A model generated the notes under the pieces. It saw only the letters and a list, made by a program, of their open reading frames with translations. It was not told where the DNA came from and did no database searches. From Deltaproteobacteria bacterium (GTDB lineage: Bacteria > Myxococcota_A > Polyangia > Polyangiales > Houyiibacteriaceae), in assembly GCA_017644045.1 (NCBI GenBank), contig JAEPMI010000004.1, positions 142,014 through 206,013 of the forward strand: a stretch of 64,000 bases of DNA, given 5' to 3'. Numbering within the stretch: position 1 is the stretch's first letter; each line of letters begins with the position of its first letter. Positions 30,302 through 38,376 of this stretch are shown here, piece by piece. A program made the position numbers and the translations under genes.

Positions 30302-31129
30302 ATGGCGCGACCCATCGGCTGGCTCCTGGTGCTCGCCGCCCTCTCCGGCTGCACCGGTGGGCCGCGGCACGAAGCGCCGTGTGGCTTCACCAACCCCGCC
30401 CTGGAAGAGGACGCCGACGGTGATGGTCTGATCCGCGCCTACGAGGGCATCGACTCGGACCAGGACGGCGACGGGCTGGTGAACGACCTGGACACCGACG
30501 CCGACGGTGACGGTTACCCGGACGCCGACGAGATCGGCATGCGCATCGATCGCTGCTATCCGCCGGTGGACACCGACCGCGATGGCCTCCCCGACTTCCT
30601 CGACACGGACTCGGACGGCGACGGGCTGCTGGACGGGGAAGAAGGTGCGATGGGCCTGGACCCGGTCGACCCGGACAGCGACGCCGATGGCTGCCCCGAC
30701 GGCGCAGAGGACCTGCTCGACGGTTGCGCGGACCTCCGGGATCTCGCGCTGCGAATGGTCTGTGGCGACCGCTTCGGGACGGTCATCTTCCCCTGGGAGG
30801 GACCAGCGCTCTCGACCGCGACGCTGCGAGCGGTGATGGACGAGGACGACGACCCGAGCACCTTCTTCTCGTTCGCGACCTTCGCCGACGCCGCGTTCCC
30901 GGCCGGCTCGGCCACGCTGGTGAGCGAGCTCGACGATGGCTCGGATGCGACGTTCGTCGACATCGCGTCGGGGGCCTCGCTGGTCTTCGCCGTCGAGGTG
31001 CTGACGGTGCAGACGGAGGGGCCGCGCACGCTCGGTCGGCTGGAGCTCCTCGGTCCCGGCGGCGAGGTCCTCGACACCGGTCGGCTCCTGATCCTCGGCG
31101 AGCGCAGCTGCGCCGTGCGTCGCCCATGA
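30302..31129 (+). CDS. thrombospondin type-3 repeat (Ca-binding) lipoprotein, paralog A
   Basis: Lipobox ALSGC. Repeated DxDxDGxxDxxD units (DSDQDGDGLVNDLDTDADGDGYPDADE, DTDRDGLPDFLDTDSDGDGLLDGEE). Confidence 0.85.
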   Translation: MARPIGWLLVLAALSGCTGGPRHEAPCGFTNPALEEDADGDGLIRAYEGIDSDQDGDGLVNDLDTDADGDGYPDADEIGMRIDRCYPPVDTDRDGLPDFLDTDSDGDGLLDGEEGAMGLDPVDPDSDADGCPDGAEDLLDGCADLRDLALRMVCGDRFGTVIFPWEGPALSTATLRAVMDEDDDPSTFFSFATFADAAFPAGSATLVSELDDGSDATFVDIASGASLVFAVEVLTVQTEGPRTLGRLELLGPGGEVLDTGRLLILGERSCAVRRP

Positions 31130-31545
31130 ACGAACCCGATGGGGTGCCGAGCCGCCCGCCCCTCGCCATCCTGCTCGCGCTCTGCGGCGCGCTCGCGCTC
31201 GGTCCACTGATGCTCCCCGACGGCGTCGGCGGCTTTCGAATGTTCACCTCGCCGGTCGAGTACCGGCTCGACCTGGCCGTCGAAGGTGAGCGCGGCTTCC
31301 CCCGCCGAATCCCGCTTCGCACGCTCGAGCCGCATCTCGGGCGCGACGCCCGGCGGGTGATCGGCGCCGCGGGCGATTGGAACCTCGGCGAGACGAACGC
31401 CGCCCTCCTCCGCAGCGCGCTCGACGACGTCGGCACCTTGCTGTGCGACGTGACCGACGCTCGCACCGTACGCCTGGTCCTCTCTCGCCGACGGGTCGGA
31501 GGGACGCCCCTGGACCGCACCGACCACGCGGTGACCTGCCGATGA
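31126..31545 (+). CDS. small membrane-anchored hypothetical protein
   Basis: Internal Met MNEPDGVPSRPPLAILLALCGALALGPLML of ORF 30724..31545. Its ATG overlaps the upstream stop (ATGA 31126-31129). Confidence 0.6.
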   Translation: MNEPDGVPSRPPLAILLALCGALALGPLMLPDGVGGFRMFTSPVEYRLDLAVEGERGFPRRIPLRTLEPHLGRDARRVIGAAGDWNLGETNAALLRSALDDVGTLLCDVTDARTVRLVLSRRRVGGTPLDRTDHAVTCR

Positions 31546-32465
31546 CGACCGCCCGCACGTGGCTCGAGTCCCTCTTCGGCGGCTGGGTCCAGCCCTGGCC
31601 CTTCGCGCTCCTGAGGGTCGGCCTCGCGGCGCTGGTGCTGCTCCGGACCACGGTCGTCGACTGGCTGCCGATGGACCACCACGCTTGGGTCGGCGGGCTC
31701 GAGTACCACCCAGCGACCGACGCCGCCGAAGCGCCCACGCTCCACTCGCCGCTCTGGCCCTTCCTGCCACCGCTCGGTCCGGGGCTCACGGCAGGGCTGG
31801 TGTGGGCCCGGACCGGTCTGGCCGCCCTGCTCCTCGTGGGCATCCGGCCGCGCGTCGTGGCCGCGCTGCTCGCCCTGGTCGGCTACGGCCTGATGGCCGC
31901 GGACCGCACGCGCTACCTCCACCACCTGCACCTGCTCTGGCTGAGCGTGGGCCTCCTCGCGTTGACCCCGTGTGGGGAACGCCTCGCGCCCTTTCGACGG
32001 GTGCCCTTCCTCGGAAGCGGCGAGCCGCTCGCGGAGTGGGTCCCCCGATGGTCGCTCCAGGTCCTCCGGTTCCATCTGCTGGTGGTCTACACCGCCGCTG
32101 GGGTCGCCAAGCTCGACCCACGCTGGCTCTCGGGCGAGACCCTCCTCGAGCTCCACCGAGCAGAGCTGCTGACCGGCCCACTCGTCGCTAGCGTCATCGA
32201 ATCACTCGGGGCGGCGACGCTCGCCATCGCCATCGCCGCGACCGAGCTCGCCCTACCGCTCTTGCTGGTGTTTCGCCGTTCTCGCTGGATCGGCATCGCC
32301 ATCGGTGTGCTCTTCCATCTGTCGGTCGAAACCTCGATCATGGTCTCGACCTTCGGCGCCACGATGATCCTCCTCCTGCTCGTCTTCTCACCTGGATGGG
32401 TGAAAGTACCGCCAATGAGCGACGACACCGACATCGACTCCGAGCCCGCGGCTCGCGCGGACTGA
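31542..32465 (+). CDS. HTTM domain membrane protein (vitamin K-dependent gamma-carboxylase-related family)
   Basis: Internal Met MTTARTWLESLFGGW of ORF 31377..32465. Its ATG overlaps the upstream stop (ATGA 31542-31545). Polytopic, with the HTTM-like block RWSLQVLRFHLLVVYTAAGVAKLDPRWLSGETL. Confidence 0.7.
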   Translation: MTTARTWLESLFGGWVQPWPFALLRVGLAALVLLRTTVVDWLPMDHHAWVGGLEYHPATDAAEAPTLHSPLWPFLPPLGPGLTAGLVWARTGLAALLLVGIRPRVVAALLALVGYGLMAADRTRYLHHLHLLWLSVGLLALTPCGERLAPFRRVPFLGSGEPLAEWVPRWSLQVLRFHLLVVYTAAGVAKLDPRWLSGETLLELHRAELLTGPLVASVIESLGAATLAIAIAATELALPLLLVFRRSRWIGIAIGVLFHLSVETSIMVSTFGATMILLLLVFSPGWVKVPPMSDDTDIDSEPAARAD

Positions 32466-32599
32466 AGCGTCGTGGCTCAACCTGGCACTCGCCAACACGA
32501 CAATCTCACTTTCTCGATGGGTGTTTGGAAAGTCCCACCCGAAAGAGCGACAGCCACTCGACCGTGCTAAGTCGATGCACGAAGCGCAGGGGTGAGACG

Positions 32600-34435
32600 A
32601 TGAAGACGTTCGCGATCGTGATGGGTGTGATGCTGGCTCTGACCGGCTGCAATGAATCGGGTCCCGGCTCGGACGACACCCTCTTCCCGCCCGACGGTGG
32701 CCCCGACCCCCGCACGACCCGGGACCTCGGCCCGAACCCCACGCCGGCCTACCCCTCCACGCCCGAGTACGTGCAGCACCCGACCTCGGTCGGCGCGGCC
32801 TCGGTGCTTCGGACCGCCGCGGGTGACGCGGCCGTGGTCACGGACCCCTACCGCGACCGCATCTACGTCACCACCCCCGGCCTCGGTGACGAGGTCGCCG
32901 TCATCGACCTCGCGGCCGGCGACGAGCCGGGTGCGCTGGTGGAGGACGCCGCCGGCCGAGTGCACGTCGCGCTCCGACGCGGTGGCGCCCTCGTCACGCT
33001 GGCGGCCGACCTCCGTTCGGTCGCCGAGCGGCGCCCGGTGTGCCCTGCACCCCGCGGCGTCGCGCACGACCCCGCGTCCGACCAGATCCTCGTCGCGTGC
33101 AGCGGCGGTGACCTCGTCCGCTTCCCGGCCGAGGGCGGCGCCGAGGTCGACCGGGTCTTCGTCGACGGCGACCTCCGCGACGTCATCGTCACCGAGAGCG
33201 CGACCTACGTGACCCGCTTCCGGAGCGCGGAGCTGATCACCCTCGACGACGCGGGCGCGATCGTCGAGCGCCGTGCGCCGCTCAGCGCCACCGTCAACGC
33301 ACGACCCGCGCCCACCAGCATCCTCCCGAACGTGGCTTGGAAGACCCTCGCGCTGCCCGGCGGTGACCTGGTGATGCTCCACCAGCGATCGGTGTCGAGC
33401 CCCATCGACGTCGACCCGAGGACGGGCGGCGGCTACTCGGGTGAGAGCATCGCGCCGGGCTGCGCCACCAGCGTGGTCCAGACCTCGCTCACCCGCTTCC
33501 CGCCCACGGGCATCGCAGAGCTGAGACCCGGGCCCGTCCTCCAGGGCGTGGCTCTCGCGGTGGACATGGCGCTCCTCGAGGACGACCGTCTCGTGATCGC
33601 GACCGGTGGCTCCGGTGCCGAGACCACCCACGTGTTCCCGCTGAGCGCGGCGACCAGCTCGAGCCCGACCGACTGCCTCGACCCGCTCGCTCGAGTTCCG
33701 GGCGGCGAAGCGGTCGCGGCGGACGGCGCCGAGGTCCTCATCTACCAGCGCGAGCCCGGCATGCTCAGCCGGTGGGACGCGAGCCCCTTCCAGAACATGC
33801 CCCGCATGTGGCTCGACCAGGAGCGGAGCATCGTGGACCTCGGTCACCTGAAGTTCCACGAGGTCACGGGCGTGGGGATCGCGTGCGCGTCCTGCCACCC
33901 AGAGGGCAGCGAGGACGGTCACACCTGGGAGTTCCAGGGCACCGATCCTCGGCGCACTCAGAGCCTCCTCGGCGGCATCCTCTCCACGGTGCCCTTCCAC
34001 TGGAGCGGTGACCAAGCCGACCTCCGCGCGATCATGACCGCGACCTTCGAGGAGCGGATGCGTGGTGGCCCGGTCTCCGACGGCGAGCTGCGCCTGCTCG
34101 GCGACTGGATGGACGCCCAGCCGTCCATCCCCGCACCGGAGACCGATCCCTCGCGGATCGAGGCCGGTCACGAGGCGTTCGTCGCCGCCGGCTGCGCGGA
34201 CTGCCACTCCGGCGACCAGGGCACCAACAACGAGTCGGTCGAGCTCGAGGGCTTCGGCGCCATTCAGGTCCCGATGCTCGTCGGCGTCTCCCACCGGAGC
34301 CCCTGGCTCCACGATGGCTGCGCCCAGAGTCTCGAGGAGACCTTCGACGGCGCGTGCATCCCCGAGCACGCCCCCGCGTCCCCGCTCGAAGAGGGCGAGT
34401 CGCAAGCCATCGTCGACTACCTGCGGTCGCTCTGA
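32600..34435 (+). CDS. lipoprotein with a beta-propeller-like N-terminal region and a di-haem cytochrome c peroxidase/MauG-like C-terminal domain
   Basis: Internal Met MKTFAIVMGVMLALTGC (lipobox) of ORF 32396..34435. Two CxxCH haem motifs (CASCH, CADCH), with FHWSGD and SPWLHDG blocks typical of the CCP/MauG family. Confidence 0.8.
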   Translation: MKTFAIVMGVMLALTGCNESGPGSDDTLFPPDGGPDPRTTRDLGPNPTPAYPSTPEYVQHPTSVGAASVLRTAAGDAAVVTDPYRDRIYVTTPGLGDEVAVIDLAAGDEPGALVEDAAGRVHVALRRGGALVTLAADLRSVAERRPVCPAPRGVAHDPASDQILVACSGGDLVRFPAEGGAEVDRVFVDGDLRDVIVTESATYVTRFRSAELITLDDAGAIVERRAPLSATVNARPAPTSILPNVAWKTLALPGGDLVMLHQRSVSSPIDVDPRTGGGYSGESIAPGCATSVVQTSLTRFPPTGIAELRPGPVLQGVALAVDMALLEDDRLVIATGGSGAETTHVFPLSAATSSSPTDCLDPLARVPGGEAVAADGAEVLIYQREPGMLSRWDASPFQNMPRMWLDQERSIVDLGHLKFHEVTGVGIACASCHPEGSEDGHTWEFQGTDPRRTQSLLGGILSTVPFHWSGDQADLRAIMTATFEERMRGGPVSDGELRLLGDWMDAQPSIPAPETDPSRIEAGHEAFVAAGCADCHSGDQGTNNESVELEGFGAIQVPMLVGVSHRSPWLHDGCAQSLEETFDGACIPEHAPASPLEEGESQAIVDYLRSL

Positions 34436-34437
34436 TC

Positions 34438-35253
34438 GTGCGGCTCGTGGTCGTCGCCTGTCTCGCCGCCACATGGGCGAGCTGTGGTGGTGACTCCGAT
34501 GGGCTCGGCGACGCCGCCGCGGACGCAGCGCCCGATGCCCCACTCGAGCGGGACATGGGCGACCCGTGCACCGACCGGGACGGAGACGGGATCCCCGATC
34601 GCTTCGAGGGGACCAGCGACGACGATGAGGACGGAATCCCGAACGACGAGGATCGCGACTCGGACGGCGACGGCATCCTCGACGAAGTCGAGGCGGGTGA
34701 GCTCGCCGACTGCGACTTCCCTCCGCAGGACACCGACTTCGACGGGTGGCCCGACTACCTGGACGACGACTCCGATGGCGACGGGCTGCCCGACGCCGAC
34801 GAACGCGAGCGCGGTTTCGACCCCACGCACGGCGACACGGACCGCGACGGATGCCCGGACCCCGCCGAGCTCTTCGACGGCGCGTGTGACGATCCGCGCA
34901 ACGCGTTCGTGCTGGTCGAGTGCGGCGTGCCCACCGGCGGCACGGCCACGTTCGTCTGGGAGGGCGACGAGCCCCTGCCGAGGGCGAGACTCACGGTGAC
35001 GCTGGATTCCCCGGAGGCCGGGGCCGGTATGGGGGCGCCTCAGGCGGTGACCCCCGCCGGAGCGGCCAGCATCGCGGACTTCGAGTTCAACGACGTTCAG
35101 CCTGGAGCCCAGCTGACCTTTGGCATCGCGCTCCGCATCTCGGAGCCGATGGCGACCGGTACGCTCGAGCTCGAGGATGGCGCGGGCCTCACGATCGACA
35201 CCGGCCGGCTCTACGTCTTCAGCCACGACAACTGCATGCCCCTGGTGATCTGA
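34438..35253 (+). CDS. thrombospondin type-3 repeat (Ca-binding) lipoprotein, paralog B
   Basis: Part of ORF 34354..35253. GTG 34438 lies 2 nt after the upstream stop and gives VRLVVVACLAATWASC (lipobox). DxDxDG repeats. The C-terminal end resembles gene 30302..31129. Confidence 0.8.
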   Translation: MRLVVVACLAATWASCGGDSDGLGDAAADAAPDAPLERDMGDPCTDRDGDGIPDRFEGTSDDDEDGIPNDEDRDSDGDGILDEVEAGELADCDFPPQDTDFDGWPDYLDDDSDGDGLPDADERERGFDPTHGDTDRDGCPDPAELFDGACDDPRNAFVLVECGVPTGGTATFVWEGDEPLPRARLTVTLDSPEAGAGMGAPQAVTPAGAASIADFEFNDVQPGAQLTFGIALRISEPMATGTLELEDGAGLTIDTGRLYVFSHDNCMPLVI

Positions 35254-37958: not shown

Positions 37959-38231
37959 CTACTCGGAGTCCGAGTCGTCGCCCTCTTCGGACTCGCCGCC
38001 TTCGGGGAGCATCAGGTCCTCGTCCGAGAGGCCGTCGTCCCACTCCTCCTCTTCCTCCTCGGCGTCCACGTCGAGCGGATCCTCGGCGCCGACGTACTCG
38101 GCGAGCTCCGGGCGCTCCGCGACGGGCGGCTGCGGCGGGAAGGGATAGTCCGGAACCGGCGTGTCCTCACCACAGGCGAGGGCGAGGAGCAGCGGGAGGG
38201 GGATGAGGGAAAGGGCTCGCATCGGCGCCAT
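37959..38231 (-). CDS. small acidic lipoprotein
   Basis: ORF 37959..38258. Met at 38231 gives MAPMRALSLIPLPLLLALAC (lipobox). The remainder is Pro- and Glu/Asp-rich. Confidence 0.6.
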   Translation of the reverse strand: MAPMRALSLIPLPLLLALACGEDTPVPDYPFPPQPPVAERPELAEYVGAEDPLDVDAEEEEEEWDDGLSDEDLMLPEGGESEEGDDSDSE

Positions 38232-38376
38232 GAAGCCACGACGCCGCCCACCCCGCAAGGGTGGACGGCGTCATGGTGCAAACGTGCGGTCGAATCACTG
38301 TCGCGAGAGCGACAGACGGGAGCGGAGCGAGCGGAGTCGGGAGGGGCCCCGTCTCGGGCTCCGCCCGAGTGGGGAA

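What the first reader, a model, noticed from the sequence alone, without database searches (positions are those of the whole stretch)
30302..35253. HTTM-domain protein and di-haem peroxidase/beta-propeller lipoprotein bracketed by two paralogous Ca-binding TSP3 lipoproteins
Five co-directional genes make up the cluster. They are TSP3-repeat lipoprotein A, a small membrane-anchored protein (ATGA overlap 31126-31129), an HTTM membrane protein (ATGA overlap 31542-31545), a lipoprotein with a propeller-like N-terminal region plus two CxxCH haems (CCP/MauG-like), and TSP3-repeat lipoprotein B (2-nt gap). The two TSP3 proteins share architecture and similar C-terminal ends (LELLGPGGEVLDTGRLLILGERSC versus LELEDGAGLTIDTGRLYVFSHDNC). 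The HTTM family is related to the membrane domain of vitamin K-dependent gamma-glutamyl carboxylase, and its bacterial functions are essentially uncharacterised. MauG-type di-haem enzymes perform oxidative protein modification. One hypothesis follows: this is an envelope machine that oxidatively or post-translationally modifies the acidic Ca-binding lipoproteins encoded at its two ends.
Basis: partly seen in the sequence, partly recalled or inferred. Interest (0 to 1): 0.7.

Follow-up and report, generated by a model that had tools for sequence, protein, structure and literature searches.

The report
Carboxylase-like membrane enzyme with calcium-binding lipoproteins
A rare myxobacterial gene cluster pairs a membrane enzyme, which keeps the catalytic residues of the human vitamin K-dependent carboxylase, with acidic calcium-binding lipoproteins that look like its targets, giving a testable candidate for protein carboxylation in bacteria.

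Summary
The five co-directional genes are real, at the stated coordinates, with both ATGA overlaps and the 2-nt gap. In this report T is the TSP3-like lipoprotein family (A and E), B the small membrane protein, C the HTTM protein and D the propeller plus di-haem lipoprotein.

A and E are paralogues (41% identity, E 2e-29). C is a solid HTTM protein. Its subfamily aligns with human gamma-glutamyl carboxylase (GGCX, E 6e-14) and keeps GGCX's membrane-domain active-site residues. D is closer to a fusion of the hydrazine synthase beta and gamma subunits than to MauG.

The conserved unit is T-B-C, not the five-gene set. Across 13 independent contexts of this rare HTTM subfamily, B was adjacent in all 12 where the upstream side was visible. 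T was adjacent in 11, and D in only 5 of 12. T-D pairs also occur without B-C.

Best reading: B and C form a two-part quinol- and O2-dependent, GGCX-type enzyme that modifies the T lipoproteins, most plausibly by carboxylating Glu or Asp in their calcium-binding repeats. D is a lineage-specific second partner of T.

No modification has been shown. B matches no known family.

The parts
30302..31129 (+). T lipoprotein A. It has a lipobox (LSGC), four invariant DxDxDGxxDxxE calcium-binding (TSP3-type) units, six conserved Cys, and a beta-rich C-terminal domain ending in an invariant Cys (C270). It is the candidate substrate or partner.
   Evidence: The family HMM finds it next to the HTTM subfamily in 11 of 13 contexts.
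31126..31545 (+). B, a small accessory protein. It has one N-terminal transmembrane helix and a roughly 100-aa extracytoplasmic domain. Invariant residues include M39, F40, Y46, P69, H70, D74, R77, G88 and C107. It is translationally coupled to both neighbours by ATGA overlaps.
   Evidence: It lies immediately upstream of the HTTM gene in 12 of 12 contexts. It has no Pfam, NCBIfam or PDB match and no fold match.
31542..32465 (+). C, the HTTM membrane protein, with a GGCX-like catalytic core. GGCX residue to C residue: K218 to K190, W223 to W195, H160 to H128, N159 to H127, D263 to E235, F286 to F258, H287 to H259, F299 to F271. It ends about 25 residues after the HTTM domain and has no lumenal domain.
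   Evidence: The roles of the GGCX residues come from PMC12647623.
32466..32599 (.). The C-D spacer of 134 nt. In the closest relative (L001) a third T paralogue of 263 aa sits exactly here. The difference is a clean insertion or deletion.
32600..34435 (+). D, a lipoprotein (LTGC) with a beta-propeller (about residues 55-405) and a compact di-haem domain (about 410-611). It resembles a fusion of hydrazine synthase beta and gamma. The second haem is probably bis-His, through the invariant H590.
   Evidence: 5c2v_C, E 7e-24. (pLDDT 88.7). (5c2v_B is the top fold match, TM 0.70 on the target). PMC12758564.
34438..35253 (+). T lipoprotein E, a paralogue of A with a GTG start 2 nt after the D stop. 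Its C-terminal tail is C-MPLVI.

Best explanation
The conserved functional unit is T-B-C.

**The enzyme (inferred).** C is a periplasm-facing membrane enzyme of the HTTM/GGCX type. It would bind the respiratory quinol, presumably menaquinol. It would then use its invariant Lys190 (held by Trp195, next to Glu235) and O2 to generate a strong base, as GGCX does. It also keeps the GGCX pocket residues that hold CO2 (Phe271) and the substrate carboxylate (His128/His127). B is a single-pass protein made by translational coupling with C. It is proposed to be a private accessory subunit that caps the active site or recruits the substrate, in place of the lumenal domain that C lacks.

**The targets (inferred).** The acidic, calcium-binding TSP3-like lipoproteins A and E are the proposed substrates. 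The most likely chemistry is carboxylation of the invariant Glu, or of Asp, in their DxDxDGxxDxxE repeats. That would strengthen calcium binding.

**D (inferred).** D is a hydrazine-synthase-beta-gamma-like propeller/di-haem oxidoreductase. It is a second, facultative partner of the same lipoproteins, recruited only in this lineage. Its propeller would dock T, and its open haem would carry out a redox step of unknown nature.

**Shown versus inferred.** Shown: gene linkage, homology and residue conservation. Inferred: the B-C complex, T as substrate, the chemistry, and the role of D.
For: **Linkage.** There are 13 independent contexts of this HTTM subfamily, with C down to 44% identical.
- T-B-C-D-T: the window.
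- T-B-C-T-D-T: L001.
- B-C-D-T-T: L008.
- C-D-T-T: L094.
- T-B-C-D: L090.
- T-B-C: L004, L005, L009, L091, L092, L093.
- A JGI contig with genes of 266 aa and 139 aa followed by HTTM.
- B-C plus other genes: L006.

The gene order is shuffled but the set is kept. T copy number varies from 1 to 3, as is typical of substrates rather than subunits.

**Catalytic core.** The subfamily profile hits human GGCX at E 6e-14. N159, H160, K218, W223, D263, F286, H287 and F299 map to H127, H128, K190, W195, E235, F258, H259 and F271. All but position 258 are invariant in 16 sequences. PMC12647623 assigns these residues to quinol deprotonation, CO2 trapping and Glu binding. C has only 2 Lys in 307 residues, and one of them is K190.

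**Precedents.**
- A preprint predicts that an HTTM protein plus a single-TM DUF5819 protein form a GGCX-like complex. It notes that MloH carboxylates Asp (10.64898/2026.08.19.745780).
- SdpA and SdpB are required to process SdpC (PMC6818787).

**T as hub.** T also pairs with D alone, in L002 and L010.
Against: - No chemical evidence exists for any modification.
- B has no detectable similarity to DUF5819, SdpA or the VKGC lumenal domain. Its model is weak (pLDDT 67.8) and gives no fold match.
- GGCX residues contributed by the lumenal domain (Y395, M401, R406) have no identified counterpart.
- N159 is His, not Asn.
- In L006, B-C lies beside a Cys-rich lipoprotein rather than T.
- From memory, not checked here: the one bacterial GGCX orthologue assayed on peptide substrates (Leptospira) showed epoxidase but not carboxylase activity.
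- The invariant Glu and Asp residues of T are explained by calcium binding alone.
Confidence: 0.4

Rival explanations
1. B-C is a quinone-linked thiol/disulfide maturation system for Cys-rich lipoproteins. On this view the HTTM protein acts like its clan relatives DoxX and MauE, or like DsbB and VKOR. It would pass oxidising equivalents through B's two conserved Cys to form the three disulfides of T. D, a MauG relative, would parallel the mauE/mauD/mauG arrangement.
For: - T has six conserved Cys beyond the lipobox, and B has conserved Cys (C107 and a C-terminal Cys).
- In L006, B-C sits beside a lipoprotein with 14 Cys in place of T.
- HTTM relatives give weak MauE and DoxX Pfam hits.
- Many bacterial HTTM proteins are fused to a DCC thiol-disulfide oxidoreductase domain.
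Against: - The HTTM subfamily has no invariant Cys at all, so there is no DsbB- or VKOR-style Cys relay in the membrane protein.
- The residues that are invariant are those GGCX uses for quinol deprotonation, CO2 trapping and carboxylate binding.
- B has no CxxC motif, and its two Cys could simply form a structural disulfide.
Confidence: 0.2
2. This is an SdpAB-like processing or export system. B-C would convert the T precursor into a processed, released product, for example by cleaving or handling the C-terminal Cys-plus-hydrophobic tail. No carboxylation would be involved.
For: - The layout is the same: small protein, HTTM protein, secreted protein. SdpA and SdpB are required to process SdpC (PMC6818787).
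- T has an invariant Cys 3-6 residues from its C-terminus, usually followed by a hydrophobic tail.
Against: - Neither B nor C reaches any NCBIfam model, including the SdpA and SdpB families, at E <= 0.1.
- T is a lipoprotein of about 275 aa with folded domains, not a toxin precursor. There is no immunity gene nearby.
- The mechanism of SdpAB is itself unknown, so this rival is not exclusive of the carboxylase reading.
Confidence: 0.12
3. All five genes would form one envelope machine in which a MauG-type di-haem enzyme (D), together with the HTTM protein, oxidatively modifies the T lipoproteins.
For: - All five gene types are co-conserved in five clusters (window, L001, L008, L090, L094) despite reordering.
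- MauG and MbnH are precedents for di-haem enzymes that modify a partner protein encoded next to them.
Against: - D is absent from 7 of 12 informative T-B-C clusters, and T-D pairs occur without B-C.
- D's di-haem domain matches hydrazine synthase gamma at E 7e-24 but MauG at only 5e-5.
- T has no conserved Trp, Tyr, His or Met.
- 79 other D-family loci have no T neighbour and no conserved neighbour of any kind.
Confidence: 0.12
4. The T proteins are not substrates but calcium-dependent scaffolds or adaptors. They would tether or assemble D and B-C at the envelope, acting as structural subunits.
For: - T is the shared neighbour of both enzyme types.
- In hydrazine synthase the propeller acts as a docking platform (PMC12758564).
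Against: - Copy number varies from 1 to 3, and paralogues within one cluster diverge to 41% identity. That is unusual for a stoichiometric subunit.
- The C-terminal domain of T does not resemble the missing VKGC lumenal domain.
Confidence: 0.1

Closest known systems
[quoted passage not shown]
   Same: - C is homologous to GGCX residues 102-312 (profile E 6e-14).
- The counterparts of K218, W223, H160, D263 (as Glu), F286, H287 and F299 are conserved.
- Both act on the non-cytoplasmic side of the membrane.
- GGCX's natural substrates are calcium-binding proteins. Here the linked proteins are calcium-binding too.
   Different: - C is 307 aa and stops right after the HTTM domain. It has no lumenal clamp or propeptide-binding domain.
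- N159 is His.
- A separate single-TM protein (B), unrelated in sequence to the lumenal domain, is always co-encoded.
- The candidate substrates carry TSP3 repeats, not Gla domains with propeptides.
Predicted bacterial two-component HTTM + DUF5819 complex, and the fused carboxylase MloH (bioRxiv 10.64898/2026.08.19.745780; Law et al. 2018 as cited there)
   Same: - The gene for a single-TM protein with a small extracytoplasmic domain lies adjacent to an HTTM gene.
- The same Lys/Trp/Phe triad is conserved: K189/W195/F273 there, K190/W195/F271 here.
- MloH shows that bacterial enzymes of this type can carboxylate Asp.
   Different: - B gives no DUF5819 hit even at E <= 10.
- C has no DCC domain.
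- MloH acts on a PKS-NRPS intermediate. Here the linked genes are lipoproteins, not a biosynthetic cluster.
Bacillus subtilis SdpA/SdpB/SdpC (and YitPOM)
   Same: The operon logic is the same: small protein, polytopic HTTM-type membrane protein, and a secreted protein that depends on them (PMC6818787). That SdpB belongs to the HTTM family is from memory.
   Different: - There is no NCBIfam match of B or C to the Sdp families.
- T is a calcium-binding lipoprotein, not a toxin precursor.
- There is no immunity gene.
Hydrazine synthase beta and gamma subunits (PDB 5C2V) and their widespread fused beta-gamma homologues
   Same: - D's di-haem domain gives its best PDB sequence match to HZS gamma (E 7e-24), including the His-containing C-terminal motif.
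- D's propeller gives its best fold match to HZS beta.
- PMC12758564 reports that such fused homologues are highly prevalent in environmental bacteria and are annotated as CCPs.
   Different: - There is no alpha-subunit homologue in the cluster.
- The organism is a myxobacterium, not an anammox bacterium.
- D is a lipoprotein.
- It is linked to T lipoproteins only in this lineage.
MauG/preMADH and MbnH/MbnP (di-haem enzymes that modify a neighbouring-gene protein)
   Same: D belongs to the same di-haem superfamily: profile E 7e-10 to MbnH (6e1c) and 5e-5 to MauG. It is encoded beside a periplasmic protein of about 270 aa.
   Different: - The relationship is far weaker than to HZS gamma or to classical CCPs.
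- D has an extra propeller.
- The second haem is probably His/His, not His/Tyr.
- The partner has no conserved Trp.

Membership tests
HTTM domain family (Pfam PF05090) | Score above the Pfam gathering threshold | tested here: met
   C scores 76.4 bits against a cutoff of 27.7, E 3.5e-21.
Vitamin K-dependent carboxylase (GGCX/VKGC) | Membrane domain homologous to GGCX, with the catalytic base Lys218 and its Trp223 support | tested here: met
   The profile hits GGCX at E 6e-14. K218 maps to K190 and W223 to W195, both invariant in 16 sequences.
Vitamin K-dependent carboxylase (GGCX/VKGC) | CO2 pocket and substrate-carboxylate residues in the membrane domain (F299, H160, N159, D263) | tested here: met
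   F299 maps to F271, H160 to H128, and D263 to E235 (a conservative change). N159 maps to H127, which is changed but polar. All four are invariant. The residue roles come from PMC12647623.
Vitamin K-dependent carboxylase (GGCX/VKGC) | C-terminal lumenal domain (Pfam VKGC_lumenal_dom; Y395, M401, R406) in the same polypeptide | tested here: not met
   - C ends about 25 aa after the HTTM domain.
- A genuinely fused bacterial homologue, P0140, does have the domain.
- Neither B nor the C-terminal domain of T matches it by hhalign (probability 0.2% each).
Vitamin K-dependent carboxylase (GGCX/VKGC) | Quinol- and O2-dependent carboxylation of Glu or Asp in a substrate | not testable with these tools
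   This needs MS of A and E and an enzyme assay.
HTTM + DUF5819 two-component system | Partner protein belongs to DUF5819 | tested here: not met
   Nine B-family members were scanned against Pfam at E <= 10 and gave no DUF5819 hit. Only the architecture is shared: an N-terminal TM helix plus a small domain, encoded next to the HTTM gene.
SdpA/SdpB antimicrobial-peptide maturation system | Match to the NCBIfam SdpA and SdpB family models | tested here: not met
   There is no NCBIfam hit for B or C at E <= 0.1.
DsbB/VKOR-type quinone-linked disulfide catalysts | Conserved Cys pairs in the membrane protein | tested here: not met
   There is no invariant Cys in the 16-sequence HTTM subfamily alignment.
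Bacterial di-haem cytochrome c peroxidase/MauG family (PF03150) | Two CxxCH motifs and a score above the Pfam threshold | tested here: inconclusive
   - Two CxxCH motifs are present and invariant.
- The Pfam score is 24.1 against a cutoff of 25.6.
- The family profile hits solved CCPs at E 1e-13 and below.
- D is therefore a superfamily member with a shortened di-haem domain of about 200 aa.
MauG/MbnH-type protein-modifying di-haem enzymes | Closest relationship to MauG or MbnH, and a conserved aromatic target residue in the partner protein | tested here: not met
   - MauG scores E 5e-5 and MbnH 7e-10, against HZS gamma at 7e-24.
- There is no conserved Trp or Tyr in 19 T-family sequences, and several have no Trp at all.
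Hydrazine synthase beta-gamma-like fused proteins | Propeller like HZS beta, fused to a di-haem domain like HZS gamma | tested here: met
   - 5c2v_C is the best sequence match (E 7e-24, two stretches).
- 5c2v_B is the best fold match (E 5e-13, TM 0.70 on the target).
- The model has pLDDT 88.7.
Hydrazine synthase (functional complex) | Alpha-subunit homologue encoded alongside | tested here: not met
   The cluster holds only A-E. The flanking genes are a beta-lactamase-type gene, an epimerase and a GMC oxidoreductase.
Bacterial TSP3 repeat proteins (PF18884) | Repeats scoring above the Pfam threshold; the DxDxDGxxDxxD/E calcium-binding motif | tested here: inconclusive
   - A and E score 16.8 and 15.4 bits, below the cutoff of 25.
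- Family members P0226 and P0247 score 31.6 and 51.9 bits.
- L094's two copies carry PF18884.
- Four motif units are invariant.
- A search with A against 1.84 billion proteins is dominated by giant TSP3-repeat proteins.
Bacterial lipoproteins | Signal peptide ending in a lipobox Cys | tested here: met
   LSGC in A, LTGC in D and WASC in E. The Cys is conserved in 18 of 19 T sequences. This was read from sequence, and no predictor was run.

The most novel reading that the evidence does not exclude
This would be the first bacterial system in which a GGCX-type quinol-dependent carboxylase acts on proteins. B-C would convert Glu to gamma-carboxy-Glu, or Asp to beta-carboxy-Asp, in the TSP3 repeats of dedicated lipoproteins. 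That would tune calcium binding at the myxobacterial envelope. It would also show that the link between vitamin K-type carboxylation and calcium-binding proteins predates animals.
Probability: 0.2. Interest if true: 0.9.

Novelty: new variant of a known kind. Interest (0 to 1): 0.62.

Why it matters
What the many bacterial HTTM/GGCX homologues do is a long-standing open question. The only characterised bacterial carboxylase of this type, MloH, acts on a small-molecule intermediate. No bacterial protein substrate is known.

This cluster supplies what has been missing: a specific, genetically linked candidate substrate family, of a kind (calcium-binding) that echoes the animal Gla proteins. It also supplies a minimal 307-aa catalytic core and an obligatory 139-aa partner. 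The question therefore becomes directly testable by mass spectrometry and mutagenesis.

Separately, the cluster gives the first consistent genomic partner for a member of the large, uncharacterised family of hydrazine-synthase-beta-gamma-like haem proteins.

Tried and rejected
**Searches on B that found nothing**
- Pfam and NCBIfam gave no hits.
- A profile search against PDB sequences gave only a chance hit at E 0.94.
- AlphaFold could use only a 4-sequence alignment, because just 4 homologues were retrievable. The model reached pLDDT 67.8.
- Foldseek against PDB gave no hit below E 0.2.
- hhalign of B, and of T's C-terminal domain, against the fused bacterial VKGC P0140 was negative.
- T's C-terminal domain against PDB sequences gave nothing significant.

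**Surveys with limited or negative yield**
- The promoter and terminator scan of the cluster found 0 sites.
- The genome-contig scan with the HTTM profile found only 3 species genomes out of 185,579. The subfamily is therefore rare, and the statistics rest on 13 contexts.
- A census of 80 metagenome D-family loci tested whether D is generally tied to T. It is not: only L010 has a T neighbour. No neighbour family recurs in more than 5 of the 80 loci.
- A search of 1.84 billion representatives with full-length A was swamped by generic TSP3-repeat proteins. It gave only five clear full-length family members.
- Pfam scans of the rest of the window found no quinone-biosynthesis or VKOR-like gene.

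**Ideas rejected**
- A DsbB/VKOR-like Cys relay in C, because C has no conserved Cys.
- D as a MauG orthologue.
- T as the missing lumenal domain.
- Membership of the CglD, MtsC or BamM families. The hits are weak NCBIfam matches of 13-21 bits against cutoffs of 315-400, and the CglD and MtsC matches fall on A's acidic Asp-rich repeat region.

Full report
**Naming.** T is the TSP3-like lipoprotein family, which includes genes A and E. B is the small membrane protein, C the HTTM protein, and D the propeller plus di-haem lipoprotein.

**Observation.** The window is about 70% G+C throughout. Between 30302 and 35253 there are five co-directional ORFs on the + strand.
- A: 30302-31129, 275 aa, signal peptide ending LSGC.
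- B: 31126-31545, 139 aa, one N-terminal hydrophobic helix.
- C: 31542-32465, 307 aa.
- D: 32600-34435, 611 aa from the ATG that gives MKTFAIVMGVMLALTGC.
- E: 34438-35253, 271 aa, GTG start.

The two ATGA overlaps and the 2-nt gap were read directly. The flanking genes lie on the opposite strand and are unrelated: a beta-lactamase-type gene, a SnoaL-like gene, a glutamine-synthetase-type gene, an epimerase and a GMC oxidoreductase. The cluster is therefore a discrete unit. No further copies of any of the five families occur in the window. A and E are true paralogues, 41% identical over 237 aa with E 2e-29. An identical copy of B is deposited under a MAG labelled "Deltaproteobacteria bacterium", which is probably the window's source. 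The closest relative found is a Sandaracinus MAG.

**Domain assignments.**
- C is a firm HTTM protein (76.4 bits against a cutoff of 27.7).
- D has two invariant CxxCH motifs. It falls just under the Pfam CCP_MauG threshold (24.1 against 25.6 bits).
- A 50-sequence profile of D's family hits solved structures in this order: hydrazine synthase gamma at E 7e-24, classical di-haem peroxidases at 1e-13 and weaker, MbnH at 7e-10, and MauG at 5e-5.
- D's AlphaFold model is confident (pLDDT 88.7). Its best PDB fold match is the hydrazine synthase beta propeller (5c2v_B).
- D is therefore a lipoprotein version of the fused beta-gamma homologues. PMC12758564 describes these as highly prevalent in environmental bacteria, annotated as peroxidases and of unknown function.
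- A and E are below the TSP3_bac threshold themselves. Their family is above it. Four DxDxDGxxDxxE units, six Cys beyond the lipobox, and a Cys 3-6 residues from the C-terminus are conserved in 19 sequences.
- B matches nothing in Pfam, NCBIfam or the PDB.

**Co-conservation.** The HTTM subfamily is rare. The 5.8-billion-protein set holds about 17 close clusters, and it occurs in 3 of 185,579 species genomes. Every source that carries a lineage name is myxobacterial, apart from two MAG proteins labelled Actinobacteria. I recovered 13 independent contexts.

| Gene order | Context |
|---|---|
| T-B-C-D-T | window |
| T-B-C-T-D-T | L001 |
| B-C-D-T-T | L008 |
| C-D-T-T | L094 (truncated at the contig start) |
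| T-B-C-D | L090 |
| T-B-C | L004, L005, L009, L091, L092, L093 |
| 266 aa, 139 aa, HTTM | one JGI contig, no DNA available |
| B-C, then a ferritin-like protein and a Cys-rich lipoprotein | L006 |

- B is adjacent in 12 of 12 contexts where the upstream side is visible.
- T is adjacent in 11 of 13, plus one probable.
- D is adjacent in 5 of 12.

In the other direction, D's family is very large (more than 3,300 hits). In 80 metagenome loci it has no conserved neighbour, and only the closest one (L010) has T beside it. T-D pairs without B-C exist in L002 and L010.

The picture is two modules, T-B-C and T-D, that share T and are merged in this lineage. T copy number varies from 1 to 3. The third copy in L001 sits exactly at the window's 134-nt C-D spacer.

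**Mechanistic evidence for C.** The subfamily profile aligns with residues 102-312 of human GGCX at E 6e-14. I mapped the residues that recent cryo-EM work assigns to catalysis (PMC12647623) onto C.

| Human GGCX | Window C |
|---|---|
| K218 | K190 |
| W223 | W195 |
| D263 | E235 |
| F286 | F258 |
| H287 | H259 |
| F299 | F271 |
| H160 | H128 |
| N159 | H127 |

All but position 258 are invariant in the 16-sequence subfamily alignment. C has only two lysines, and one of them is K190. There is no invariant Cys. That argues against a DsbB- or VKOR-style disulfide relay.

C lacks the lumenal domain of GGCX, whereas a genuinely fused bacterial homologue (P0140) has it. A 2026 preprint predicts that other bacterial HTTM proteins pair with a single-TM DUF5819 protein to rebuild a GGCX-like complex around the same Lys/Trp/Phe triad. 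It recalls that MloH carboxylates Asp. B has that architecture and is translationally coupled to C. I could not show homology or structural similarity to DUF5819 or to the lumenal domain. The idea that B completes the enzyme is therefore an inference from linkage and architecture only.

**What T offers as a target.** The only conserved chemically reactive residues in T are the Asp and Glu of the calcium-binding repeats and the six Cys. There is no conserved Trp, Tyr, His or Met. Several members have no Trp at all. This speaks against a MauG- or MbnH-type aromatic modification. It leaves carboxylation (or another reaction at Asp or Glu) and disulfide chemistry as the candidates. T's C-terminal domain matches no solved structure and does not match the VKGC lumenal domain.

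**Verdict.** The unit, however, is T-B-C with D as a facultative add-on. D resembles hydrazine synthase beta-gamma rather than MauG, and nothing yet shows a modification.

My best explanation, at confidence 0.4, is a two-part GGCX-type quinol- and O2-dependent enzyme (B-C) that modifies the calcium-binding lipoproteins, most plausibly by carboxylation. The rivals are:
- a thiol/disulfide maturation system (0.2);
- SdpAB-like processing (0.12);
- the single five-gene oxidative machine (0.12);
- T as a scaffold rather than a substrate (0.1).

It is a new variant of a known kind. Its value is that it names a concrete candidate protein substrate for a bacterial GGCX-like enzyme.

Noticed in passing
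window 32466-32599; L001 7102-7893: The closest relative carries a third T paralogue (263 aa) between the HTTM gene and D, exactly where the window has a 134-nt spacer. The flanks align on both sides and no remnant is left. T copy number per cluster varies from 1 to 3.
   Followed up: yes
window 31109-31129 and 35233-35253 (C-termini of A and E); 19 T-family sequences: Every T protein has an invariant Cys 3-6 residues from its C-terminus. In most it is followed by a short hydrophobic tail (for example CMPLVI, CPILI, CAIFI, CSPVLI), which recalls a CAAX box. The A-type copies end in RRP or RRS instead. The meaning is unknown.
   Followed up: partly
L006 8935-10211: In one relative, B-C is followed not by T but by a 226-aa ferritin-like protein (DEYQH and ADELQH motifs) and a 199-aa lipoprotein with 14 Cys. 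A similar ferritin-like ORF recurs near 5 of 80 otherwise unrelated D-family loci.
   Followed up: partly
L010-L089 (80 metagenome loci of the D family): The large family of hydrazine-synthase-beta-gamma-like propeller/di-haem proteins has no conserved gene neighbour. No neighbour family recurs in more than 5 of the 80 loci. It is usually a stand-alone gene.
   Followed up: yes
L002 5876-7029: A radical-SAM gene and a 94-aa ORF lie immediately upstream of the T-D pair that lacks B-C, in the same Sandaracinus MAG. This may be an unrelated peptide-modification pair.
   Followed up: no
L005 2174-2800; L092 1414-2013; L091 1-351: A GTP cyclohydrolase I (folE) gene sits just upstream of T-B-C in three relatives. 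A MshEN/response-regulator gene sits downstream. This is probably local synteny of one sublineage rather than a functional link.
   Followed up: no
L091 2658-3260; L092 4407-4862: A conserved lipoprotein (lipobox APGCGG) lies directly downstream of the HTTM gene in two relatives, overlapping its stop codon in L091. It is 200 aa as called in L091 and 151 aa in L092, and has no Pfam match.
   Followed up: no
P0139, P0135 (HTTM relatives): Some HTTM relatives also give weak Pfam hits to MauE and DoxX (E about 1e-3). This is consistent with these membrane families being related. It keeps alive a parallel with mauE/mauD/mauG.
   Followed up: partly
window 37959-38258 (- strand): A 99-aa ORF begins with a signal-peptide/lipobox-like LALAC stretch and has a very acidic tail (EEEEEEWDDGLSDEDL...). 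It lies just upstream, on the same strand, of the 514-aa GMC oxidoreductase gene, and a conserved 89-aa gene occupies the same place in L001 and L094. The function is unknown.
   Followed up: no
window 30302-35253: A, B and E contain no lysine at all. C has two, one of which is the predicted catalytic K190. Lys is scarce genome-wide here (0.5-5%), so this is only mildly unusual.
   Followed up: partly
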